From NCBI GenBank assembly GCA_903868145.1, contig CAIPTY010000036.1, positions 9-64,008 of the forward strand: 64,000 bases of DNA, in the 5' to 3' direction. The translations under genes and the position numbers were made by a program. The notes beneath the pieces were generated by a model, which was not told the origin of the DNA, ran no database searches, and was given only the letters and a program-made list of their open reading frames with translations. Every line of letters begins with the position of its first letter. The stretch's first letter is position 1. This document shows positions 17,454 to 30,408 of this stretch, in pieces. This stretch comes from an uncultured Desulfuromonadales bacterium. Its GTDB lineage: Bacteria > Desulfobacterota > Desulfuromonadia > Geobacterales > Pseudopelobacteraceae.

Positions 17454-17530
<77 letters not shown>

Positions 17531-17590: not shown

Positions 17591-17621
17591 GTACCCTAAA
17601 TTGTACCCTAACGTACCCTAA
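17591..17621. repeat. Three direct copies of GTACCCTAA just inside the left island end; candidate integrase arm-type sites
   Basis: The copies are at 17591-17599, 17603-17611 and 17613-17621. Two more copies in the same orientation lie at the right end (30187-30195 and 30199-30207). Confidence 0.5.
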
Positions 17622-17657: not shown

Positions 17658-18899
17658 ATGGCCAGTCTTAAGAAACGTGGTAAAACCTATTACGCTCAAT
17701 ACTATAACGGCACCCAGCAAGTAAGAAAAAATCTCTATACCGACAGCCTCCAGATTGCCAAGGAGAAGCTCCGGCAACTGGAATCCGCTCTATATCGTCA
17801 AGTTGATATCCCCCTTCCCACCAGGAACACCGTCGAGAAGATTGTCGGCGATTACGTTGATCACCTTTATATCGTAAAGCGCGACAAGAACGCTCAGAAG
17901 GTTATCTCATACCTGCGGGACGCTTTAGGCCCGATCTGCGACCAGCTCAAAATCAAGAAGCAAAAGGTGGCAGATAAGTCTGTCAAACGGAAGGCCGTTC
18001 ACCCGATTAATCCGATTCAATCGGTTTACTTCGAGCAGATCACTACTGAGGATATCTCACGATTCATTGCCTCGGTTGTCCGCAGTAAGGGGATCAAACC
18101 GAAGACTGCCAACCGGTACCGGGAAATCCTCACCAGGTTGTTCAACTGGGCTACCACACAGCGTGGTGTTGTGCTGCCAGGCGGAAAGAACCCTGCTGCA
18201 GCCGTTGAACGTTACAAGGAAGCTGACCCGGTGATCGTGTACCTGTCTTTGAATGAGATCGAAGAGCAACTTACCGCGCTGGCAGATGAACCACAGCTCC
18301 AGACAATGGTGGCCCTCTATATCTATACTGGCGTCCGACGGGAAGAGGCTCTATGGTTGACGACTGCCGATATTGATCTGGATGCCGGTCCCTACGGCAT
18401 GATCTATATTGTGACCAAGTCTATTGATGACAAGGACTGGCATGCCAAGACTCATAAGAAACGGGTAGTTCCCATCAGCAGCCAACTCAGAGCCTATCTG
18501 GATCGGTATACTCCGATGAAGACTGAAGAGAACTGGTTTTTCCCCTCACCTAAAGGGGCTTTCTGGGATCCTGATAACTTTTCATCGGACTTGAGGGAGT
18601 TCAACAGGAAGATGGGGTTGAAATGGTCATGTGATGAATACCGGCATACCTTCGGCAGCCAGCTGGCGAGAAAGGGGGAGAGTCTATACAAGATCTCCAA
18701 ATTGATGGGTAATTCCCCCGAGGTATGCCGGAAGCATTATGCTCACTTGGAGCCTGATGCATTGATTGACTCGGTTGAGTTTCCTGTCGAAGGTGGGAAG
18801 GCAGTATCACCCCCCCAGCCCTTGGTTTCATTATCGGCTCCCATAGCGGTACAGGAACCCGAAACGCCCAGGCTGAGGTTGGTGGTCAATAACCGGTAG
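17658..18899 (+). CDS. int: Tyrosine-type site-specific integrase
   Basis: The 413-aa protein has a SAM-like N-domain. The catalytic signature includes RREE...(R), HKKRVVPI, YRHTFGS (HxxR) and CRKHYAHL (the Tyr). It is adjacent to the tRNA att site. Confidence 0.9.
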   Translation: MASLKKRGKTYYAQYYNGTQQVRKNLYTDSLQIAKEKLRQLESALYRQVDIPLPTRNTVEKIVGDYVDHLYIVKRDKNAQKVISYLRDALGPICDQLKIKKQKVADKSVKRKAVHPINPIQSVYFEQITTEDISRFIASVVRSKGIKPKTANRYREILTRLFNWATTQRGVVLPGGKNPAAAVERYKEADPVIVYLSLNEIEEQLTALADEPQLQTMVALYIYTGVRREEALWLTTADIDLDAGPYGMIYIVTKSIDDKDWHAKTHKKRVVPISSQLRAYLDRYTPMKTEENWFFPSPKGAFWDPDNFSSDLREFNRKMGLKWSCDEYRHTFGSQLARKGESLYKISKLMGNSPEVCRKHYAHLEPDALIDSVEFPVEGGKAVSPPQPLVSLSAPIAVQEPETPRLRLVVNNR

Positions 18900-20850: not shown

Positions 20851-20942
20851 AAATAAAAAATCCGTTTGCGTCTTATTCTGTCGTGCCTCTGCTGTATAGT
20901 AATTCCCAGGATCATGTAAAAAATATCGGAGCTAATCGAGAT

Positions 20943-22502
20943 ATGGATATTTTCTGGAACAACGGAGAGAGGGAGACCATTCAAGGCCTTGATATCCTTG
21001 CTTTGCGTCAGCTGGATCAGCGCATCGAACAGGATTGGGTTGCGAATATCACCACCATCTCGATCAGAGCACGTTACCTGTCTCTCCTGCCATGGTTGTT
21101 TGCGGAATTTTATACATCACAACTGGCTGCCGATGGCGGGCAAGCTGTTTTTGATAGCGACCTGTTCAGACAGGCGGCAGCCCGAATGGAGTTAATCGTA
21201 CTCGCTGCGACGCGGATGGGGAAGAAATGGGGAGAGTCTGGGATTACGTACGGCGCTATCGGTTCGGAGCTCTATCATGAGGAGGTTACTGCTTTAGAAG
21301 CTAACGGGAGCCTGACATTGGTTACAGGCACACGGGGTGGCTCGGTATACGGAACCTATGTAATGCCCTGTCGCGGCTTCGGGTTGTTGAACACCACCAA
21401 TAACCCGTCGGTACCGGTCAAAGTGGAACCTAGAGGGCAAAAGCTTCATCAAGTCCGAAGAGAGATGATCCCTCCCGATGGGTTAGTACAACTCATATTG
21501 GCGGGAGGTACCCTGACGACAGACCTGCTGGAGAAAGAAGGTGTCCACTTCTCATTGAATGGTCTGAGTGCCAACCCGGAGGAGATGAGTCTGCTGCGAG
21601 AGGCCCTGATTGAACCGTATCTGGACCATTCCGAGATCAAACAGACTTATGCACGGTTCACCGAATCCGCCCAGTGGTTCCTCTCCATGAGTCAGTCCTC
21701 CACCTCCAATATGAATTCCGATGAAATTTTGAAAACAAACTTCCGCAACATCGTCACCACACCGGATCTCACCCCCTCAAAAGTAGAACTCGGTTGGGGG
21801 GAATATGAACTAAGGAGAAGAGTTCACTTTGCCCTCGAATTGTTGCTGGGGGCGTTGACTCGGACGCTCGTCGACTTGGTGGATGGGACAGTGGAAGAGG
21901 TATTGGATGAGTGGATGGGTAACTGGCAATTGCCTCCATTTTTGAATGCTCTGGTGCCTCCAAACGACAACCCGTTTGAACTCAGGCTTGCCGCTATTGT
22001 TGATCAGATCCCTGCGGATGCTTTTCTGGACCGAGGCCCGAATCGTGGTTCAGCAAGAGATCTTAGCCCAGCCCAACAAGCGGTGTATGCGTTAGCTAAC
22101 CTGATAGCGTGCCGAACCCAGTCTGCTGCCTTATGCACGGCTGGGGTGATCCCGAACAGGAATCATTACATGGAGCGGGCATTCAACATTCTGGAGGATA
22201 GCGATCGAACGGTTTACGAAAGCTTACGGGAACTACTCATCTGCACGGTGATTGAGCCCCATCTCAGAACTTCACTGCGCAAGCTTGGGCAAGGTCAGAA
22301 ATGTTCTCTCAGGTTTTTTCCCGAAGGTAATATTCTGCGCCCTACTGGTACTCTGGTGGCTGCGAGCTACAGCGGGGACCGCCTTGGTAATGTCATGGGT
22401 TTCTTTGCTGATGTCGGGTATCTGGATCGGATTGAAAGCTCACGGTTTGCCATATCAGCTGATGGCCGGACACTGCTTGAATCCTGGGAGGCTACAGCAT
22501 GA
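20943..22502 (+). CDS. Hypothetical protein (519 aa) with no recognisable motif; first gene of the PLD operon
   Basis: The track ORF is 20883-22502. I prefer ATG 20943 ([11 protein letters not shown]) because GGAG lies about 10 nt upstream. A TATAGT -10-like hexamer at 20895-20900 is downstream of the alternative GTG. Its stop TGA overlaps the ATG of the next gene (ATGA at 22499-22502). Confidence 0.7.
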
Positions 22503-25135
22503 GACGGGATATCGTGAGGCTGATCGAAGCTGAAAAAGATGTAACCAATGTCGTGGTACTGACCCACAACATTGACTTCGTGTACATCCAGTCGGTCGTG
22601 CTACCGGCGTTGCGCCGCTGCGGTCACCCTACACTGACCATATTCGCGGATGCCCAATGCGCCAGTGAAACATATCAGCACCAGCATCTGGTACTGGACT
22701 CCCTAGGCCACCGGTTCAGGGTTGTGCCGGTGGCTATGCGGCCGGGATTCCGGTTCCACCCCAAGGCGATCCTGCTCTCGGCCCAGAACAAAGGGACTCT
22801 CCTGGTGGGAAGTGGTAATCTCACCTTCGGTGGATGGCGGGAAAATGCGGAGATATGGTGCCGATACGACTCAGATAAGGACGGGACTGCCCCTTTTTCG
22901 GCATTCAGGAATTATCTCAATTCGGTTCTTTCCCTCACCCCCCTACAGGAGTCTCTCGTTGCTGAAATCGAAGAATGCTTTGAAGGCGCCAACAGACCTT
23001 GGGCGATCGATATGGATGCACCGGATCGGTTATTGGGCAGCCCCGGTACAAGTGCAGCACTGATAGATCAGATGAAAACTGCTATCGGCGATAAACCGGT
23101 CAACGATCTTCTGGTCTGCACTCCCTATTTTGATGATGCCGGGGATGCGTTGATGGCCTTATCGACAGCATTCAATACGAAAGTGAAAGTAGCGCTACAG
23201 AGCAGACACAGCGGCCTGAAGACCGAGGCTGCTAAGGCGTTAGGAGACCGTTTCGATCTGTCTACGGTTAATTTCCACCATCTTGATATCGAAAACAACC
23301 TTCGGGAAGCTTTCATTCATGCCAAGTGGTATGGATTCGAGCATGAAGATGACGTCACCGTTTTTCTGGGGAGCGCCAACTGTTCCAAGGCGGCGCTTAC
23401 GATTCCCGGAACAGCTGGCAATGCTGAACTGTTAACTGTTGTTACCCTGTCCAAAGAAGAGTTCCACGCTCAATTCGTTGCCGAACTTGAATTTGTAGAT
23501 GCGCCCCCACAGCTCACTTCCATCGCCGATACCGATCAGCCGGCTGACAACTTACTGCCATCTATTCGTATCATGGCTGCCCGCCTCGACCAAGGAGTCA
23601 TGCAAATCGCCTATACCTGTTCAGAGGGAATCAGGCTCTCAGGATTAGTCCTGCACGTTGCAGGAGGTCTTGTCGTTCCCACCGACTACACAGAGGTGGA
23701 GCCTGGCGTCCTTGTAGTACGTGGCGTGCAACCTGACAGTCGTCAAGTCTGTCTGAAGGGTCAGGCTTCCCATGGCGAAATACTTTCAAACCTCATGTGG
23801 GTTGACCACGAACAGTCTCTGAGCACTACCGCTCGCAGCAGATCGGTTGTCGATGCAGTCCGCAAGAAAGTGCAGTCGCAAGATTGGTCCATCGGAGCGT
23901 GGTCGGAAATAGCCAATGTTTTCTTCCGAAACTTGCAGTACATGCCATTACGAGCTACTGGCTCCCGTTTTACGAGCGATGGTAGCAGGAACCCCGGTGA
24001 AGCCCAGCCTGTGTACAGTGCTGGTGATGTGTTCGCAGACAGCTATGGCTTACCGTCCTTTACCAGACATCTGCCTCATGAACTGGCGAACAGTGATGAC
24101 CGGGTTACCAGCCTGCGTCAATTACTGCTGCGCTGGTTTGGCTTGAAAGATGACAGCGATCCGGACAAACCGCCAATAGACACCGTGGTGCTAAGTGGCA
24201 GCGGTGAACCGGAAGAAGAGCCGTTGCCACCGCTGGCACCAAAACCAGCCGCACCGCCCGTACCACCTGCCAGGTCCGTTACTGACAGCGATCGCAAACG
24301 CGCTCTGCAGATGCTGCAGATCATTACCGATGCCATGTCATCGCCGGAATATCTGGCCAAGCGCCAGCCAGAAACCCTCTCAGTCGATATACAGTTTGCC
24401 TCTGTTCTCTTGAGAGAAGGGCTTCACGAATCATGGATCACCGAAGCGGAGTACTTCGCAAGTACTCATAAAATATGGAGTGCTCTCTTCTTCTCTTGTG
24501 TCGCTGATGCCAAGATTGGATGGCTTGAGTACCGATACCGCAATGACGAAGACCCTGAAACTTTCGTCTCTAGGATGGCTTCACCGAAGCTCACCGCCGC
24601 ATTAGCTGCATGGGCGTTTGCCGTGCCAGATGGGGGGAATGCCCCTGAGAACGTCCGGTTCCGCCTCTCTCAAGTCTTGTCAGTGGCCCGCCTCCCATGG
24701 CTCTGGGAGCAGGCTGGTATGGAGGACGTTGCAAAGGAATTAAGAGAGCTGCTTAGTATCACGTCCGCTACATGGTCTGAAGATTTCTGGCAGTCCATCG
24801 AGACTCGCTGGAATAAATTGATACGTCAAGGATATGCTCTATGCCTTGTTGAGGAGGCCCTGGCCACGAAAACACCGGTAGAAATCAAAGGAGCGATCCA
24901 ACAGACCACTGTCAAGAAGGGGGAACTGCTCTGGCAGGGGACAGCAGGTTTTTGTATTGCAGTTCAGGATTTTTCCCGATCCAGTGGTAATGCACAAGTC
25001 CTATATCTTCAACAGGCCAGAGAAGGTGCTATCAAGGCTGAATTTGCCATCCCGCTGAAAGGGCTTGTTGAGTCGAAGATCATCTCGTTGCCAGATAAGC
25101 CGAAGGTTGTCCTTACAGAGATGTCATGCACCTGA
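22499..25135 (+). CDS. PLD-superfamily (double HKD motif) protein, putative nuclease, with a long uncharacterised C-terminal extension (878 aa)
   Basis: Motif 1 is [24 protein letters not shown] (H87 codon at 22757). Motif 2 is [24 protein letters not shown] (H274 codon at 23318). A Pro-rich linker [21 protein letters not shown] follows, then a Trp-rich C-terminal domain of about 290 aa with no motif I recognise. Confidence 0.8.
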
Positions 25136-25276: not shown

Positions 25277-25879
25277 ATGTCTCAACCCACAGCGCGCCAG
25301 CAGCAGGTGCTGGATTATATCCAATCTCACATTGATAACGATGGTTACCCCCCCACCATCCGGGAGATATGCGCCCACCTTGGGGTCTCTGGGACCGTCT
25401 CCGCCATGCGGCACCTGGATGCTTTAGAGAAGAAGGGGTATATCAAGCGGGACTCCTACTCCAGGGGCATAGCCATCACCTCCCCCACAGCTGGCTCAGC
25501 CTCACTACCCATTATAGGCACCGTCCGGGCCGGGGCGCTCTCTTCGGCAGTAGAGGACATCACGGGCTATCTTTCCCTGGACCGTTTGCGCCTGCACGGT
25601 GGTAAGTTTTTACTTCGGGTGCAAGGAGACTCCATGATCAATGCCAGCATCAGCGACGGCGACCTGGCGCTGGTACGCCCGCAGCCCACAGCAAACAATC
25701 GGGACATCGTGGTTGCCATGGTAGAGGGGGAGGCAACCCTGAAACGCTACTACCGGGAAAAGGACTGTATCCGTCTTCAGCCGGAAAACCCGAACATGGC
25801 GGCCATCATCGTACCGGAGGGCTCCAGTGATGTTACCATCATCGGCAAGGTTGTGGGCATCTACCGCGATCTGGGGTAA
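25277..25879 (+). CDS. lexA: LexA-family repressor (S24 peptidase), island-borne copy
   Basis: The N-terminal winged HTH reads QQQVLDYIQSHIDNDGYPPTIREICAHLGV...LDALEKKGYIKRD. The cleavage region is VRAGAL. The Ser is in GDSM and the Lys is in ATLKRY. Confidence 0.9.
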   Translation: MSQPTARQQQVLDYIQSHIDNDGYPPTIREICAHLGVSGTVSAMRHLDALEKKGYIKRDSYSRGIAITSPTAGSASLPIIGTVRAGALSSAVEDITGYLSLDRLRLHGGKFLLRVQGDSMINASISDGDLALVRPQPTANNRDIVVAMVEGEATLKRYYREKDCIRLQPENPNMAAIIVPEGSSDVTIIGKVVGIYRDLG

Positions 25880-25882
25880 GCT

Positions 25883-26125
25883 GTGCGGATCAAGGAACCG
25901 ATACGCGTGGCTGTGGTCTTCGGGCCAGGACGAACCATCAAGCCGGTCTGGTTTGACTGGCATAACCGGAAGCATGCCGTCCTGGAGACGACCTATACCT
26001 GGATGGACCTGAAAGGCAGCGCCAAACGTCTGCACTTTGCCGTTCGGGATGAAGGCGGATTGTACGAGCTAACCTACGACACTGCCGAACAGACCTGGGA
26101 ACTGAGCGGGCTTGAAGGTACCTGA
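25883..26125 (+). CDS. Small hypothetical protein (80 aa) co-transcribed with lexA
   Basis: A GTG start lies 3 nt after the lexA stop. No family was recognised. It occupies the slot between lexA and the dinB remnant. Confidence 0.45.
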   Translation: MRIKEPIRVAVVFGPGRTIKPVWFDWHNRKHAVLETTYTWMDLKGSAKRLHFAVRDEGGLYELTYDTAEQTWELSGLEGT

Positions 26126-26126
26126 C

Positions 26127-26300
26127 GTGACAAACCGAGCGGTAATGCTCATCGCCATGAACGCTTTCTTTGCCTCTGTCGAGCAGGCGGCCAACCCGGA
26201 ATTATCGGCCCCGAAGAGGTTTTACGGAGCCTTGAGTATATGCCTATCAAGGAGCTCTGTGGGATTGGCAGGAAGATGGAACGACACCTGATGGCTTCAA
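26127..26300 (+). pseudogene. dinB: Decayed remnant of a Y-family DNA polymerase IV (dinB) gene
   Basis: Frame 1 gives VTNRAVMLIAMNAFFASVEQAANPEL, close to the DinB N-terminus (xDMDAFFASVEQ) but with both catalytic Asp positions replaced. After about 30 codons a different frame gives EEVLRSLEYMPIKELCGIGRKMERHL, which is the DinB HhH/GIG region normally about 150 codons further on. Unrelated AT-rich sequence follows. Confidence 0.6.
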
Positions 26301-26448
26301 AATGTAGATGTGCGGTAAGAGGTAAAGGTACGGTCTGCTTCTATAGATCAGACTAAAAAATACTACCGCCATACTGCATAACTGTGTTATTTATTACAAA
26401 TTTAGTGTGCTCACTGACTATATTTCCAGCTACACTACGGAGTTTCAA

Positions 26449-27438
26449 ATGGCCAGGGCCGATATACTATTAAGTATAGTCAAGTCAGCAATCGGCAACG
26501 ACAACCTTTCTTTGCGAAAAGCTGTCGAGACGCTGGCTGCAGATGAACGCGCCAAAAATCATAGTATTCTGGCTGATCGTCTGATTGAACTGTTATCCAT
26601 GCACGGTAATCAGGTGAATAAGACAACCCCCTTCATACAAAACGGTACCAAAGATTTGGTGTATGAGATTATCCCCGAAAAAAGCTTCAGCGACCTTGTT
26701 CTTGATAAAGATGTGTTAGACATATGCCGGGAACTGATCGAGGAGCATCACCGTGCCGACCTTCTAGTATCATATGGTGTTGAGCCCCGACACCGCATTC
26801 TGTTCGCCGGTCCGCCGGGTAACGGTAAGACAACACTGGCAGAGGCCTTCGCATCGGAACTGATGTACCCGCTCATCGTGGTTCGCTATGAAAATATTAT
26901 AGGCAGTTATCTGGGTGAAACCGCCTCGAGGTTGCAGAAGGTATTTGAAACAGCTCGATCACGAAAGTGCGTTATCTTCTTGGACGAATTTGAAACCTTG
27001 GGTAAAGAGCGTGGAGATACCCGAGAGACCGGTGAGATCAAGCGAGTTGTCAGTTCCCTGCTGTTACAGATAGACCGACTCCCTTCCCATACGGTTGTCA
27101 TCACCGCAAGTAATCACCCCGAACTGCTCGACAGGGCCGTATGGCGTCGGTTCCAGGTCAAGGTTCAGCTGCCACCCCCTACCAAGGAGCAATGTATTAT
27201 CTTTATCAAAAATTTTGAAATGAGGACCGGTTTCAACTTCAAGACGGCCTACAACACGTTGGCTGATAAGTTGGCTGGTATAAGTTTTTCTGAAATTGAG
27301 GAGTTCTGTCTTGATGTTTTACGTCGTTGTATTCTGAACCATCAGCAGGACAATCCGAAAGAGATCATCAAAAGCCGGATAAAGAATCTTGAGTGCAGGT
27401 TTGTTCCTAGTAGGCGGGAGGTAGTTGATGCCGGATAG
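26449..27438 (+). CDS. AAA+ ATPase, IetA-like
   Basis: The ATG at 26449 (MARADILLSIV) follows ACGGAG. Walker A is GPPGNGKTT and Walker B is VIFLDEFE. ITASNHPELLDRAVWRRF covers the sensor-1 and Arg-finger region. It overlaps the downstream S8 peptidase gene by 11 nt. Confidence 0.85.
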   Translation: MARADILLSIVKSAIGNDNLSLRKAVETLAADERAKNHSILADRLIELLSMHGNQVNKTTPFIQNGTKDLVYEIIPEKSFSDLVLDKDVLDICRELIEEHHRADLLVSYGVEPRHRILFAGPPGNGKTTLAEAFASELMYPLIVVRYENIIGSYLGETASRLQKVFETARSRKCVIFLDEFETLGKERGDTRETGEIKRVVSSLLLQIDRLPSHTVVITASNHPELLDRAVWRRFQVKVQLPPPTKEQCIIFIKNFEMRTGFNFKTAYNTLADKLAGISFSEIEEFCLDVLRRCILNHQQDNPKEIIKSRIKNLECRFVPSRREVVDAG

Positions 27439-30178
27439 GCCCTTACTGTTATTGCCACGCTCTGCACCGCTACCAAGAGAAACTTCGCGTAGAATACCGA
27501 GAAGCAAGTTGAGATTTCCTGCAAGAGCTGAACAGGGGAATAGACTTGGTGCTCAACTTTCAACTATGCTGGATGTATATGTATCCGATTCCCCTGCTGG
27601 CACGAGCACGGAAAATATTCTGGTCATGGAGACTATCGGCAGGCCTGATAATTTTCGGACTGCTGTTGCTGCCATACCCGATCTGAAATGGCTTGCGGAA
27701 ATCGATCTGGAAAACATAGAGGCTGATGCCCGTTTCTTTGAACGCCCCAAGATAGGGGCTTTTTTCTTTAAAGGTGTGTCAGAAGGGCTAGGTACCAGAG
27801 AATCACGTGAAATTGTTGCTGCCTTCACTGCGAGTAATATCATTGATGCAGAAGGTATCCTGCGGGATGATATCTCTGCCGAAGATATCCGTGCTGTAAT
27901 CCCACATGCATACCAAGATCATGCAGACACTATCTCTGAAGCTGTTGAATCAAAGAAGAATGTGCCACTTCCCGGACGAATGTACCTGAGCCTCAGTAAC
28001 CGTCAGGCTTTGAGAGATGTAAAGTCATTATTCGACGCATGGGAAAGGGATGGGCGCCTTGAGCGAGGTGCGGGCGCATGGAGTGATATTTTTGCCCAAC
28101 TTCGTACTGTTCGTTTCTGGAATGTTAAGGACAGGGTTACTGATACTGGAATTCTTGAATATTGGCGCGAGGAAGTTGAGTGCAAGAGGGGCACTTCATC
28201 TTTGATCGCCTTTGAAGTCGAGTTCTCATATGAAGAGAACGCACTAAGCAGACGTAGTCGGCAACAACACGTTGAAGAGCTAGTGGCAGCTGAAGATGGA
28301 AGAGTTATAGCTTCGTGTGATATGAAGGAAATCCATTTTCATGCGATCAAGGTTGAGTTGCCTATCGCTTGTATCGAGCGGGTACTAGGTGAAGATTACA
28401 GTGAGCTTTTTCAAGATGGAGGTATCCTCTTTTTTCGCCCCTCCCCCCAGTGTGCGGTTGAATCGTTCGCAGAAGGTACAGAAGAAGATCTTTCATCTTC
28501 AACAGTGCCGGACGCCGCTCCAGTTGTTGCTGTTCTTGACGGTCTTCCGTTTTCTAGGCACCAACTGCTTGACGGCTTTATCATTATCGATGATCCGGAC
28601 GACGTTGCCGCTGACTATCAACCTCGGGAGATGAATCATGGCACTGCCATGCTGTCACTTATCTGCCATGGTGAACTAGATGCCAAGGAATCACCTATCA
28701 CTCGGAAGATATATGTAAGACCGATTCTGCGACCGGATAAAGAGTCTCCCCAGGACAGACGTCCGGAGAAGATTCCAAAAAATGTTTTCTTTGAAGATTT
28801 GGTCGAAAGGGCCGTGCGCAAGATGTTCACTGGTGACTCCGGTGAAGCCCCTTCAGCTCCGACAGTGAAGATCATCAGCCTATCTGTTGCTGATCCGGAC
28901 CGAATGTTTCACCAGTTCCCTGGTCCGACTGCTAGACTGCTGGACTGGCTGTCCTTCAAATACAAGGTGCTTTTTTGTGTCAGTGCTGGAAATATTAAGG
29001 AATCAGTTAAATTAGGAGTCGAGCCGGATGAGTTTTCCGCTAGATCCAGTGATGAGCAAGTTTCTTCCGTCTTGTCGGTGTTGTATGAGAACAGGAGAAA
29101 CCGCAGAATACTAGCACCTTCAGAATCAATCAATTCTATAACCGTAGGTGCCCTGCATGATGACGCTTCGACTCCCGTTATTCTTGATGGTTGCCTTGAT
29201 ATTTTACCATCTTCGGATCTTCCCTCACCACTTTCCCCGTTCGGGCATGGATTCCGCTCCTCTATAAAACCCGAGATTCTTGTTCCCGGCGGCCGCCAAC
29301 TCTTTACTCACGTGGGTGCTGGAGAATACGCCCTTCACAGACTCCAGGCACGCTCGGGGCAAAAGGTCGCTTCAGTACCGGTAAGACTTGGTGATAGGAC
29401 GCGTACTGTCTACACATGCGGCACCAGCAATGCCAATGCACTCGCTGTGCGCGGTGCTGCTTTTATCCATGATGCTGTTTTGGACGTCCTTGAAAAGCAG
29501 GGGTTGGAAAGCTACGATAGTTCAATCGCCGCTTTGATCAAAGCTTTGCTGGTTCATAGTGCTTCTTGGGGTGAGGCTGCGGATATTATCGAAAATGTGC
29601 TTATGAGCGGGAAACACTCGACGGAAGTAAAAAAAGTGATTGCCCGTTGCCTTGGTTATGGTCGACCTGATTTTGCCAAGTCGATCGAGTGTTCAACAAC
29701 AAGGGCGACGGCTATCGGCTACGGCCTCATTGCTAAGGATAAGCGGCACGAGTACAGGTTACCTTTACCCCCGAGTCTAAGTGGATTGGATTGTTGGCGA
29801 AAATTGACCATTACACTAGCGTGGCTAACGCCCATAAGTGTTGATAATCGCAAGTATCGCAAGGCGGCTCTGGGGTTTGAGGCTACGGATGCTGCTACGG
29901 CTGTTGGAGGTAAGAGAGCAGAAGCTCAGCACCAGCAAGTAAGAAACGGAACCTTACAGCATGAAATTATTGAGGGTGCGGATGTGCGCGCATTTTATGA
30001 AGGTGAATGTCTGATGATCCCTGTCCAGTGCCGAGAAGATGCAGGGACATTAGACGTTGAAGTGCCATATGGTTTAGCGGTTTCTCTGGAGGTCAAGGAG
30101 GAAGTTGGAATTGATCTGTATGAGGAGATCCAGAACATGATTGAGGTTTCCGTTAGAGAAGCTGTCAGGGCTGGATAA
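27428..30178 (+). CDS. S8 (subtilisin-like) serine peptidase with a ~360-aa uncharacterised N-terminal region, IetS-like
   Basis: The catalytic triad motifs are VAVLDGLPF (Asp), NHGTAMLSL (His) and CGTSNANALAVRG (Ser). The ATG is at 27428; a TTG at 27425 is also possible. Confidence 0.85.
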   Translation: MPDRPLLLLPRSAPLPRETSRRIPRSKLRFPARAEQGNRLGAQLSTMLDVYVSDSPAGTSTENILVMETIGRPDNFRTAVAAIPDLKWLAEIDLENIEADARFFERPKIGAFFFKGVSEGLGTRESREIVAAFTASNIIDAEGILRDDISAEDIRAVIPHAYQDHADTISEAVESKKNVPLPGRMYLSLSNRQALRDVKSLFDAWERDGRLERGAGAWSDIFAQLRTVRFWNVKDRVTDTGILEYWREEVECKRGTSSLIAFEVEFSYEENALSRRSRQQHVEELVAAEDGRVIASCDMKEIHFHAIKVELPIACIERVLGEDYSELFQDGGILFFRPSPQCAVESFAEGTEEDLSSSTVPDAAPVVAVLDGLPFSRHQLLDGFIIIDDPDDVAADYQPREMNHGTAMLSLICHGELDAKESPITRKIYVRPILRPDKESPQDRRPEKIPKNVFFEDLVERAVRKMFTGDSGEAPSAPTVKIISLSVADPDRMFHQFPGPTARLLDWLSFKYKVLFCVSAGNIKESVKLGVEPDEFSARSSDEQVSSVLSVLYENRRNRRILAPSESINSITVGALHDDASTPVILDGCLDILPSSDLPSPLSPFGHGFRSSIKPEILVPGGRQLFTHVGAGEYALHRLQARSGQKVASVPVRLGDRTRTVYTCGTSNANALAVRGAAFIHDAVLDVLEKQGLESYDSSIAALIKALLVHSASWGEAADIIENVLMSGKHSTEVKKVIARCLGYGRPDFAKSIECSTTRATAIGYGLIAKDKRHEYRLPLPPSLSGLDCWRKLTITLAWLTPISVDNRKYRKAALGFEATDAATAVGGKRAEAQHQQVRNGTLQHEIIEGADVRAFYEGECLMIPVQCREDAGTLDVEVPYGLAVSLEVKEEVGIDLYEEIQNMIEVSVREAVRAG

Positions 30179-30186
30179 TAAATCCT

Positions 30187-30207
30187 GTACCCTAAAACGT
30201 ACCCTAA
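30187..30207. repeat. Two direct copies of GTACCCTAA just inside the right island end
   Basis: The copies are at 30187-30195 and 30199-30207. They share the sequence and orientation of the three copies at 17591-17621. Confidence 0.5.
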
Positions 30208-30321: not shown

Positions 30322-30367
30322 GCTCATAACCCGAAGGTCATAGGTTCAAATCCTATCCCCGCAACCA
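30322..30367. repeat. attR: displaced 3' half of tRNA-fMet (not an intact tRNA)
   Basis: The sequence is GCTCATAACCCGAAGGTCATAGGTTCAAATCCTATCCCCGCAACCA. The upstream sequence (gcgcagggtatgaattcagac) cannot form the acceptor or D arms. The two differences from attL are a compensatory pair in the T-stem (G:C changed to T:A). Confidence 0.8.
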
Positions 30368-30377
30368 AAAAAATCTG

Positions 30378-30408
30378 GGACTTAGGCTTAATTGCTTAAG
30401 TCCTTTTT
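30378..30408 (+). terminator. Terminator-like hairpin after the displaced tRNA 3' end
   Basis: GGACTTAGGC-TTAATT-GCTTAAGTCC has one mismatch in the stem and is followed by TTTTT. It resembles the terminator at 17541-17571. Confidence 0.5.

What the first reader, a model, noticed from the sequence alone, without database searches (positions are those of the whole stretch)
26449..30178. AAA+ ATPase plus S8 subtilase pair resembling the IetAS toxin-antitoxin/defence family, with a large unexplained N-terminal region on the protease
Seen in sequence: a classical AAA+ ATPase (Walker A GPPGNGKTT, Walker B VIFLDEFE) overlaps by 11 nt a 916-aa protein. That protein carries a complete subtilase triad: VAVLDG, NHGTAM and CGTSNANA. 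Established knowledge, recalled from memory: an AAA-ATPase/subtilisin-like pair named ietA/ietS was described as a stability and TA-like module on Agrobacterium plasmid pTiC58. An ietAS system was later reported as an anti-phage system (Gao et al. 2020; the DefenseFinder model is Gao_Iet). This module is therefore probably a member of that family rather than a new system. Its mechanism is still unknown, and here the protease has about 360 N-terminal residues with no motif I recognise. The cassette looks more AT-rich than its surroundings by eye. It abuts a truncated dinB remnant, which suggests separate acquisition.
Basis: partly seen in the sequence, partly recalled or inferred. Interest (0 to 1): 0.6.

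Follow-up and report, generated by a model that had tools for sequence, protein, structure and literature searches.

The report
Ordinary IetAS defence pair on island
These two overlapping genes are a clear, intact member of the known IetA/IetS (AAA+ ATPase plus subtilisin-like protease) toxin-antitoxin and anti-phage family, and the "unexplained" front part of the protease is the family's normal N-terminal domain plus a 65-residue insertion.

Summary

- **Family membership.** ietA (26449-27438) and ietS (27428-30178) overlap by 11 nt. They match the PADLOC IetA and IetS profiles at E=2.7e-140 and 5.7e-279.
- **Intact residues.** All ATPase motifs, the pore loop, the Asp371/His404/Ser667 triad and the oxyanion Asn522 are intact.
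- **Co-occurrence.** An IetA homologue lies directly upstream of the IetS relative in 76 of 76 testable genomes from many phyla.
- **The N-terminal 345 residues are not peculiar to this copy.** Alone they hit the IetS profile at E=3.8e-67. Only residues ~106-170 are extra: a helical insertion found in a minority "long" (~916 aa) subtype.
- **Structure.** AlphaFold models the region confidently as alpha/beta subdomains. The last subdomain (258-345) sits where a subtilase propeptide sits. The region has no Pfam family and no significant PDB fold match.
- **Context.** The pair is the terminal cargo of a 12.9-kb island integrated at tRNA-fMet. It is more AT-rich than its flanks, replaces the 3' part of dinB, and was found in only 5 of 151 genomes of the order.
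- **Mechanism.** This is inferred from published relatives: IetA restrains a zymogen-like IetS until infection, which then causes abortive infection.

Verdict: a new member of a known kind, of low interest. Earlier notes from this scan had already described the island and the dinB scar.

The parts
26449..27438 (+). ietA: a 329-aa classical-clade AAA+ ATPase, the presumed antitoxin or regulator. It has Walker A G121-T128 (K127), Walker B D179/E180, pore loop 1 S-Y-L-G156-E157, sensor-1 N222 and Arg fingers R233/R234. Residues 1-~70 form a family-specific N-terminal helical domain.
   Evidence: PADLOC IetA PDLC04232 E=2.7e-140. Pfam AAA PF00004 E=1.9e-31. The best PDB sequence matches are the D2 rings of VAT/p97/Cdc48, E~4e-45, covering residues 70-306. 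Invariant columns in 28 sequences. dN/dS is 0.03 against the closest relative.
26439..26442 (+). GGAG Shine-Dalgarno, 6 nt upstream of the ietA ATG
   Evidence: Read directly from the sequence. The PADLOC profile aligns from residue 1 when the ATG at 26449 is used as the start.
27416..27421 (+). GGGAGG Shine-Dalgarno for ietS, lying inside the 3' end of ietA. Together with the 11-nt overlap (27428-27438) it suggests translational coupling.
   Evidence: Sequence. The same 11-nt overlap geometry is seen in L001, L002 and L021.
27428..30178 (+). ietS: a 916-aa intracellular S8 subtilase, the presumed toxin or effector
   Evidence: PADLOC IetS PDLC04233 E=5.7e-279. More than 3242 homologues at E<=1e-10. 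AlphaFold2 model with pLDDT 84.2 and pTM 0.85. dN/dS is 0.06.
27428..27517 (+). IetS residues 1-30: conserved N-terminal tail MPDRPLLLLP... (P5, L7 and P10 are invariant)
   Evidence: Invariant columns. pLDDT is 81-83 in the full-length model but 40-44 when residues 1-345 are modelled alone. In the model, therefore, the tail packs against residues beyond 345.
27518..28198 (+). IetS residues 31-257: a long helix followed by the first alpha/beta subdomain (strands 63-70, 87-97, 181-190, 225-230). This subdomain is interrupted by the insertion.
   Evidence: Secondary structure of the models. Matches IetS profile positions 1-110 and from 109 onward.
27743..27937 (+). IetS residues ~106-170: a helical insertion specific to the long (~905-925 aa) subtype. 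It is absent from the ~850-aa majority and from the PADLOC profile.
   Evidence: Alignment of long and short forms. No PADLOC hit for this segment alone. It is the least conserved folded segment among long forms (39% mean identity against 50-66% elsewhere). Only about 7 of the 150 best cluster representatives have it.
28199..28462 (+). IetS residues 258-345: a beta-alpha-beta-beta-alpha-beta subdomain directly before the catalytic domain, with subtilase-propeptide-like topology (inferred)
   Evidence: Secondary-structure order E259-266, H272-288, E292-299, E304-312, H313-320, E333-338. The best whole-protein Foldseek hits are pro-forms that keep their prodomain (ProN-Tk-SP 3afg E=5e-16; PCSK9). 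Their alignments are ~100-270 columns longer than those to mature subtilisins.
28514..29692 (+). IetS residues 363-755: S8 catalytic domain with D371, H404, N522 and S667
   Evidence: Pfam Peptidase_S8 E=9.9e-13. Invariant columns. Foldseek hits to subtilases.
29693..30175 (+). IetS residues 756-916: C-terminal beta-sandwich domain plus a terminal helix. This part is shared with pTiC58 IetS.
   Evidence: Model secondary structure. The hhalign alignment to pTiC58 IetS extends to column 906. No Pfam family.
26127..26300 (+). dinB (Pol IV) remnant: the N-terminus in one frame and the HhH region in another, followed by stops. It marks the left junction of the cassette.
26301..26448 (+). AT-rich spacer upstream of ietA. 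GC over 26127-26448 is 0.46. No consensus promoter was found here.
   Evidence: DNA homology to the closest relative starts only at 26431.
30187..30207 (+). Two GTACCCTAA repeats starting 9 nt after the ietS stop. They are identical to three copies next to attL (17591-17621) and are probably integrase arm-type sites.
   Evidence: 5 matches against 0.07 expected by chance
30323..30367 (+). attR: a 45-nt copy of the 3' end of tRNA-fMet, with 2 compensatory T-stem differences from the intact gene
   Evidence: A terminator-like hairpin follows at 30377-30404.
17454..17530 (+). Intact tRNA-Met(CAT), which forms attL of the 12.9-kb island. A tyrosine integrase gene lies at 17658-18899.

Best explanation
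This is a functional two-gene IetAS module. IetA is a hexameric classical AAA+ ATPase and acts as the antitoxin or regulator. IetS is a cytoplasmic subtilisin-like protease and acts as the toxin or effector.

**Shown here:**
- Both genes belong to the IetA and IetS families.
- Both are intact, under strong purifying selection, translationally coupled and always found together.
- The pair is the terminal cargo of a tRNA-fMet integrative island.

**Taken from published relatives:** IetS is toxic and IetA neutralises it. The pair protects by abortive infection and needs the protease active site.

**Inferred by me:**
- IetS is held in a zymogen-like state by its own N-terminal region. That region comprises a conserved tail, an alpha/beta subdomain and a propeptide-like subdomain in front of the S8 domain.
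- IetA has a Cdc48/VAT-type pore loop and Arg fingers. It uses ATP to engage that region and keep the protease inactive.
- A phage product, or loss of IetA after loss of the island, releases IetS. IetS then cleaves host proteins and stops growth.
- The 65-residue helical insertion of this long subtype is the most variable folded part. It is a candidate specificity or sensor surface.
For: - **Membership.** PADLOC IetA E=2.7e-140 and IetS E=5.7e-279. The N-terminal region alone matches at E=3.8e-67.
- **Pairing.** The pair is conserved in 76 of 76 testable loci across many phyla. No third gene is shared by more than 7 of 80 loci.
- **Intact residues.** Catalytic and ATPase residues are invariant.
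- **Selection.** dN/dS is 0.03 for ietA and 0.06 for ietS, and 0.07 for the N-terminal region.
- **IetA type.** It is most similar to the unfoldase rings of VAT/p97/Cdc48, E~4e-45.
- **IetS model.** The model is confident (pLDDT 84). Its best fold matches are pro-subtilases that retain the prodomain. The tail is ordered only when the rest of the protein is present.
- **Literature.** Toxin and antitoxin roles are cited or shown for pTiC58, SGI1 and mycoplasma pairs (PMC5006074, PMC8562856). Abortive infection triggered by a phage gene is reported in bioRxiv 10.1101/2022.08.27.505566. The requirement for the protease, and the failure to clone systems with mutated ietA, are reported in PMC13069673.
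- **Mobility.** attL and attR, the integrase, lower GC, and presence in 5 of 151 genomes of the order.
Against: - No experiment exists on this locus or on the long subtype.
- The propeptide-like reading of residues 258-345 rests on topology and on the lengths of Foldseek alignments. The N-terminal model alone has no significant PDB match (best E=0.037, probability 0.15).
- No consensus promoter was found upstream of ietA, so expression is unverified.
- The N-terminal region of pTiC58 IetS did not align with this one. Results from that pair may therefore not transfer in detail.
Confidence: 0.55

Rival explanations
1. The pair works mainly as an addiction (post-segregational killing) module that stabilises the 12.9-kb island, not as phage defence. 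This is the role described for pTiC58 IetAS and SGI1 SgiAT. The molecular mechanism is the same; the biological role differs.
For: - The founding members were described as plasmid- or island-stability toxin-antitoxin systems (PMC5006074, citing Yamamoto 2009).
- The pair sits at the very edge of an integrative element, 9 nt from the arm repeats and attR.
Against:
- In other genomes the pair is nested in R-M-like operons or sits next to other defence-type genes.
- Homologues of this PADLOC subfamily are annotated as anti-phage.
- The two roles are not exclusive.
Confidence: 0.25
2. IetA and IetS form a two-component ATP-dependent protease, analogous to ClpXP. IetA unfolds selected substrates, such as a phage protein, and feeds them to IetS. 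IetA is therefore an activator and specificity factor rather than an inhibitor.
For: - IetA has the full unfoldase equipment: pore loop YLGE, Arg fingers and a Cdc48-like core.
- The two genes are strictly coupled.
Against: - Published genetics show that IetS alone is toxic and that loss or mutation of IetA is lethal (PMC8562856, PMC13069673). This fits an inhibitor better than an obligatory activator.
- Subtilases are not known to form gated chambers that dock on AAA+ rings (general knowledge of the families).
Confidence: 0.12
3. The cassette is a decaying, unexpressed passenger: a remnant of a recombination event that also destroyed dinB.
For: - No consensus sigma-70 promoter lies upstream.
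- The cassette is adjacent to a degraded gene.
- The third gene seen in the closest relatives is missing here.
Against: - Both frames are full length.
- Every catalytic residue and both Shine-Dalgarno sites are intact.
- dN/dS is 0.03-0.07 against the nearest relative.
Confidence: 0.05

Closest known systems
IetAS anti-phage system (Gao et al. 2020; DefenseFinder Gao_Iet; PADLOC IetA PDLC04232 and IetS PDLC04233)
   Same: - Both proteins match over their full length (E=2.7e-140 and 5.7e-279).
- Gene order, overlap, catalytic residues and the N-terminal domain (profile positions 1-280) are the same.
   Different: - A ~65-residue helical insertion lies at IetS residues ~106-170. It is absent from the 855-position profile and from most family members.
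- This copy has not been tested experimentally.
pTiC58 IetA/IetS (Agrobacterium fabrum C58 Ti plasmid, ATU_RS23410 and ATU_RS23415), the founding toxin-antitoxin pair
   Same: - IetA is 33% identical (E=4e-42).
- The IetS S8 and C-terminal domains are homologous (hhalign probability 97.9%, columns 364-906 against 288-823).
- ietA lies upstream of ietS and the two genes are adjacent.
   Different: - It belongs to a different subfamily. pTiC58 IetS is 836 aa and matches PDLC02198 best.
- Its N-terminal ~287 residues do not align with residues 1-360 here.
- It is plasmid-borne, whereas this pair is on a chromosomal island.
SgiAT of Salmonella Genomic Island 1, and the mycoplasma AAA-ATPase/subtilisin TA132/133
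   Same: The same two-protein logic on integrative or chromosomal elements. Toxin and antitoxin roles were shown experimentally (PMC5006074, PMC8562856).
   Different: These are more distant sequences and were not compared directly here. They are described as stability toxin-antitoxin systems, not as defence.
ietHAS (Liu-DS4; PMC13069673)
   Same: The IetA plus IetS core.
   Different: ietHAS needs an adjacent SNF2 helicase, IetH. No helicase gene flanks the pair in the window: upstream are lexA, an 80-aa ORF and the dinB remnant, and downstream is attR.
Pro-subtilases with a retained N-propeptide (ProN-Tk-SP, PDB 3afg; PCSK9)
   Same: These are the best structural matches to the whole IetS model (E=5e-16 to 1e-10). 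An alpha/beta domain precedes the catalytic domain, and Tk-SP also has a C-terminal beta-domain.
   Different: - Sequence identity is only 10-13%.
- Those are secreted enzymes, whereas IetS has no signal peptide.
- IetS carries a further ~257 N-terminal residues and is partnered with an AAA+ ATPase.

Membership tests
IetAS (Gao_Iet / PADLOC IetA+IetS) | An AAA+ ATPase that matches the IetA profile over its full length | tested here: met
   PDLC04232 E=2.7e-140, residues 1-320 against profile positions 1-322 of 330
IetAS (Gao_Iet / PADLOC IetA+IetS) | An S8 protease that matches the IetS profile, including its N-terminal domain | tested here: met
   PDLC04233 E=5.7e-279. Residues 1-345 alone match at E=3.8e-67, covering profile positions 1-110 and 109-280.
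IetAS (Gao_Iet / PADLOC IetA+IetS) | The two genes are adjacent on the same strand, with ietA first | tested here: met
   11-nt overlap. The same order is seen in 76 of 76 testable related loci.
IetAS (Gao_Iet / PADLOC IetA+IetS) | Intact Walker A and B motifs and an intact Asp-His-Ser triad | tested here: met
   K127, D179/E180, R233/R234; D371, H404, N522, S667. All are invariant in the alignments.
IetAS (Gao_Iet / PADLOC IetA+IetS) | Homology to the founding pTiC58 IetA/IetS pair | tested here: met
   IetA E=4e-42, 33% identity. IetS hhalign probability 97.9% over the S8 and C-terminal domains. The N-terminal regions did not align.
IetAS (Gao_Iet / PADLOC IetA+IetS) | IetS is toxic and IetA neutralises it | not testable with these tools
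   Needs expression assays. Known only for relatives (PMC5006074, PMC8562856).
IetAS (Gao_Iet / PADLOC IetA+IetS) | Protection against phage by abortive infection | not testable with these tools
   Needs phage challenge. Known for relatives (bioRxiv 10.1101/2022.08.27.505566; PMC13069673).
ietHAS (helicase-containing variant) | An SNF2-type helicase gene adjacent to ietAS | tested here: not met
   No helicase ORF flanks the pair. The neighbours are lexA, the dinB remnant and attR.
Subtilase with I9-type propeptide | Sequence match to the Inhibitor_I9 family or another propeptide family | tested here: not met
   No Pfam hit for residues 250-345 or 1-345 at E<=10. The only resemblance is in topology and in Foldseek alignment lengths.

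The most novel reading that the evidence does not exclude
The IetS N-terminal region may be an autoinhibitory, zymogen-type module. In this reading, the invariant tail (MPDRPLL.LP) docks on the catalytic half as a pseudo-substrate or as a handle for IetA. Residues 258-345 act as a built-in prodomain. The IetA unfoldase controls the release of both. The 65-residue insertion of the long subtype would then be the phage-sensing surface. If correct, this would give the still-unknown IetAS mechanism a concrete, testable structural model.
Probability: 0.2. Interest if true: 0.55.

Novelty: new member of a known kind. Interest (0 to 1): 0.25.

Why it matters
Standard defence-system annotators would already call this locus, so its existence is not news. 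Three things are of modest value.

- The large N-terminal region is a family-wide, strongly constrained module. It is found only at the N-terminus of IetS-type proteins (1542 cluster representatives). It has no known fold relative, apart from a propeptide-like last subdomain.
- There is a minority long subtype with a variable helical insertion.
- The locus is a clean example of a minimal two-gene defence cassette. It has been swapped into the end of an integrative island at the expense of dinB.

Because the IetAS mechanism is unsolved, the domain map gives specific mutants to test. Any IetAS locus would serve equally well for that.

Tried and rejected
- **PDB sequence search with IetS.** No hit at E<=0.01.
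- **Pfam on IetS pieces.** Nothing for residues 1-345, 55-249, 250-345 or 756-916, even at E<=10.
- **Foldseek with the N-terminal model alone.** The best hit was E=0.037 at probability 0.15. The hits were a scatter of ferredoxin-like and ACT-type proteins, so no fold assignment is claimed.
- **Looking for an empty tRNA-fMet/aroC site in relatives.** aroC was found in 30 of 31 relatives, but at only ~72-74% DNA identity. No tRNA lies in the ~1.5 kb of flank fetched on each side of the aroC match in the 9 loci examined. Synteny is therefore not conserved and no empty site could be shown.
- **Direct protein search of pTiC58 with IetS.** It found nothing. The pair was located with the PADLOC IetA family instead.
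- **Third component.** The HD-CE/HATPase_c gene that follows IetS in the closest relatives has no counterpart in the window. It was rejected as part of the system because only 4 loci have it.
- **Promoter scan.** No consensus promoter was found upstream of ietA.
- **Other architectures for the N-terminal module.** The best 150 of 1542 representatives are all IetS-length proteins or fragments with the module at residue 1. Weaker hits were not listed.


Full report
**Observation**

ietA runs from ATG 26449 to TAG 27436-27438 (329 aa). ietS runs from ATG 27428 to 30178 (916 aa). The ORF lister offers an in-frame TTG one codon earlier for ietS. Each gene has a Shine-Dalgarno 6 nt upstream: GGAG at 26439-26442 and GGGAGG at 27416-27421. 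The overlap is 11 nt. All quoted motifs are present:
- Walker A at IetA residue 121 and Walker B at 175.
- IetS D371, H404 and S667, plus the oxyanion residue N522.

The cassette is moderately AT-richer than its surroundings. GC is 0.475 and 0.486, against 0.534 for the window. GC3 is 0.52 and 0.43, against 0.54-0.70 for neighbouring genes.

Directly upstream, from 26127, one frame encodes a DinB N-terminus (Pfam IMS, E=0.013). A second frame encodes the DinB HhH region (IMS_HHH, E=0.0036). Stops follow, so this is a dinB remnant with an internal deletion and a 3' truncation.

**Family membership**

IetA matches PADLOC IetA PDLC04232 at E=2.7e-140 over essentially the whole profile. IetS matches IetS PDLC04233 at E=5.7e-279. 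Pfam sees only AAA and Peptidase_S8, the latter at residues 367-723.

I located the founding pTiC58 pair at NC_003065 97873-101373. The comparison gave:
- IetA is 33% identical (E=4e-42).
- IetS is homologous across the S8 and C-terminal domains (hhalign probability 97.9%, columns 364-906 against 288-823). The N-terminal regions do not align.
- pTiC58 IetS scores best on a different PADLOC IetS profile, PDLC02198. The window's pair therefore belongs to a different subfamily of the same system.

**Co-occurrence**

A scan of one genome per species returned 80 loci encoding IetS relatives. They come from many phyla, including Desulfobacterota, Actinomycetota, Planctomycetota, Bacteroidota, Bacillota, Nitrospirota and Chloroflexota. 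In 76 of them an IetA homologue (47-87% identity) lies immediately upstream on the same strand. In the other four the IetS match starts at the contig end.

Clustering all neighbouring ORFs showed that no third gene is shared by more than 7 of the 80 loci. The pair is therefore the conserved unit.

Both genes are under strong purifying selection against the closest relative. dN/dS is 0.03 for ietA and 0.06 for ietS, and 0.07 for the N-terminal 345 residues.

**The N-terminal region**

It is not peculiar to this copy.
- Full-length homologues at 43-87% identity cover 99-100% of the protein.
- A 36-sequence alignment has many invariant N-terminal columns, including P5, L7, P10, L65, V66, E68, W88, E91, R184, R229, D235, R236 and E263.
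- Residues 1-345 alone hit the IetS profile at E=3.8e-67. Residues 1-105 match profile positions 1-110, and residues 171-344 match positions 109-280. The segment between them matches nothing.

An alignment of long (~905-925 aa) and short (~840-890 aa) family members shows that residues ~106-170 are an insertion found only in the long forms.

A profile of the N-terminal region, searched against 1.84 billion cluster representatives, found 1542 proteins. In the best 150 the module always starts at residue 1. All of these are IetS-length proteins or fragments, and only about seven carry the insertion. The module therefore appears exclusive to IetS, and the window's copy belongs to a minority long subtype.

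**Structure**

AlphaFold2 with the 36-sequence alignment gave a confident model (pLDDT 84.2, pTM 0.85). The domain order is:
1. A conserved tail (residues 1-30).
2. A long helix.
3. An alpha/beta subdomain whose strands (63-70, 87-97, 181-190, 225-230) are interrupted by the helical insertion.
4. A beta-alpha-beta-beta-alpha-beta subdomain (258-345).
5. A low-confidence linker (346-362).
6. The S8 domain (363-755).
7. A C-terminal beta-sandwich with a final helix.

The best Foldseek matches to the whole model are pro-subtilases that keep their propeptide: ProN-Tk-SP 3afg at E=5e-16, and PCSK9. Their alignments span 480-750 columns. Alignments to mature subtilisins span about 370-450 columns. 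This is what would be expected if residues 258-345 occupy the prodomain position and the C-terminal domain matches the beta-domain of Tk-SP.

That reading is an inference. The N-terminal region modelled alone (pLDDT 85.6) has no significant PDB match (best E=0.037). It also has no Pfam match.

One further hint concerns the tail. Residues 1-20 have pLDDT 81-83 in the full-length model but 40-44 when residues 1-345 are modelled alone. In the model, therefore, the tail packs against the catalytic or C-terminal half. I could not read where, because coordinates are not returned.

**IetA**

IetA is a classical-clade AAA+ protein. Its best PDB sequence matches are the D2 rings of VAT, p97 and Cdc48 (E~4e-45, residues 70-306). 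Across 28 sequences, including pTiC58 IetA, these residues are invariant: Walker A, Walker B D179/E180, the pore-loop G156-E157-T158 (in S-Y-L-G-E-T), sensor-1 N222 and R233/R234. Residues 1-70 form a conserved, family-specific helical domain.

**Genomic context**

An intact tRNA-Met(CAT) lies at 17454-17530. A 45-nt copy of its 3' end lies at 30323-30367, with two compensatory T-stem differences. Together they bracket a 12.9-kb island. The island carries:
- A tyrosine integrase and a serine recombinase.
- A PLD-type gene pair with weak ZacB similarity.
- lexA, an 80-aa ORF and the dinB remnant.
- ietAS as the last genes.

The ietS stop is followed after 9 nt by two GTACCCTAA repeats. These are identical to three copies beside attL.

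DNA homology to the closest relatives (70-80% identity) spans only 26431/26449 to 30171/30181. That is the two ORFs and almost nothing else.

IetS was found in only 5 of 151 genomes of the same order, and that count includes this genome. One of the five is only a 62-residue remnant. It was found in none of the six other same-genus genomes searched. The own genome holds a single copy.

The better description is that a minimal two-gene cassette replaced the 3' part of dinB at the distal end of an integrative island. Earlier notes of this scan had already described the island, the repeats and the dinB scar. I reached the attL/attR pair independently and re-tested the rest.

**Mechanism**

Nothing can be shown directly here. 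The published evidence on relatives is:
- The protease is the toxin and the AAA ATPase is the antitoxin. This was shown for SGI1 SgiAT (PMC5006074) and for the mycoplasma pairs (PMC8562856). Both papers cite Yamamoto 2009 for pTiC58.
- ietAS from B. cereus acts by abortive infection and becomes toxic when a phage gene is co-expressed (bioRxiv 10.1101/2022.08.27.505566).
- The protease active site is needed for defence, and constructs with mutated ietA could not be obtained. That paper states that the anti-phage mechanism "remains unknown" (PMC13069673).

Combining this with the anatomy above, my preferred model has three steps:
1. IetS is a zymogen-like intracellular subtilase, restrained by its own N-terminal module.
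2. The IetA unfoldase engages that module, perhaps through the invariant tail, to keep the protease off.
3. Infection, or loss of IetA, frees the protease.

Two rivals remain open. One is a mainly island-stabilising (addiction) role. The other is a ClpXP-like cooperative protease in which IetA feeds substrates to IetS. A decayed-passenger reading is unlikely, given the intact motifs and the low dN/dS.

**Verdict**

This is a genuine, intact and well-supported IetAS system. It is a new member of a known kind and standard tools would annotate it. The only non-canonical feature is the 65-residue insertion of the long subtype. Interest is low. The domain map of IetS is a modest by-product that could guide experiments on the unsolved IetAS mechanism.

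Two limits apply. Multimer modelling was not available.

Noticed in passing
L008:1120-10023; also L010-L013, L016, L019, L020, L045, L048, L050, L051, L055, L059, L062, L073: In roughly a dozen unrelated genomes the IetA-IetS pair is nested inside a type III-like restriction-modification operon. A DNA methylase (PF01555) lies directly upstream of ietA. A ResIII helicase with a C-terminal endonuclease domain (PF04851 plus PF19778 or TnsA-like N) lies directly downstream of ietS. This may be a four-gene variant distinct from the published ietHAS.
   Followed up: partly
L091:6034-8592; L092:10762-13323; L093:7499-8794; L003:8765-11329: In the closest relatives of the window's pair (IetS 69-86% identical), an ~852-aa gene starts 8 nt after ietS. 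It has HD-CE (PF24391, E=1.8e-46) and GHKL HATPase_c_3 domains. It has no PADLOC family apart from very weak TmtA hits, and it is absent from the window.
   Followed up: partly
window 25277-26448: No terminator-like hairpin is predicted between lexA (25277-25879), the 80-aa ORF (25883-26125; weak DUF6504 match, E=0.013), the dinB remnant and ietA. No consensus promoter precedes ietA either. ietAS could therefore be transcribed by read-through from the LexA-controlled operon, which would make it SOS-inducible. This is untested.
   Followed up: no
L103 (G061:C104:9962-10147): A genome of the same order holds only a 62-residue C-terminal fragment of an IetS gene (82% identity) with an in-frame TAG. 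It is a decayed copy.
   Followed up: no
L092:5063-6850: Next to the IetAS cassette of a 78%-identical relative, a draT (PF07357) gene appears split into 248-aa and 50-aa pieces by an inserted nucleotidyltransferase pair (NTase_sub_bind and NTP_transf_2). The whole block sits inside a nitrogenase gene cluster.
   Followed up: no
window 20883-25135: The 539-aa protein has no family match. It is translationally coupled to an 878-aa PLD-domain protein (PLDc_2; PADLOC ZacB E=2.4e-17, PDC-M27B E=2.8e-10).
   Followed up: partly
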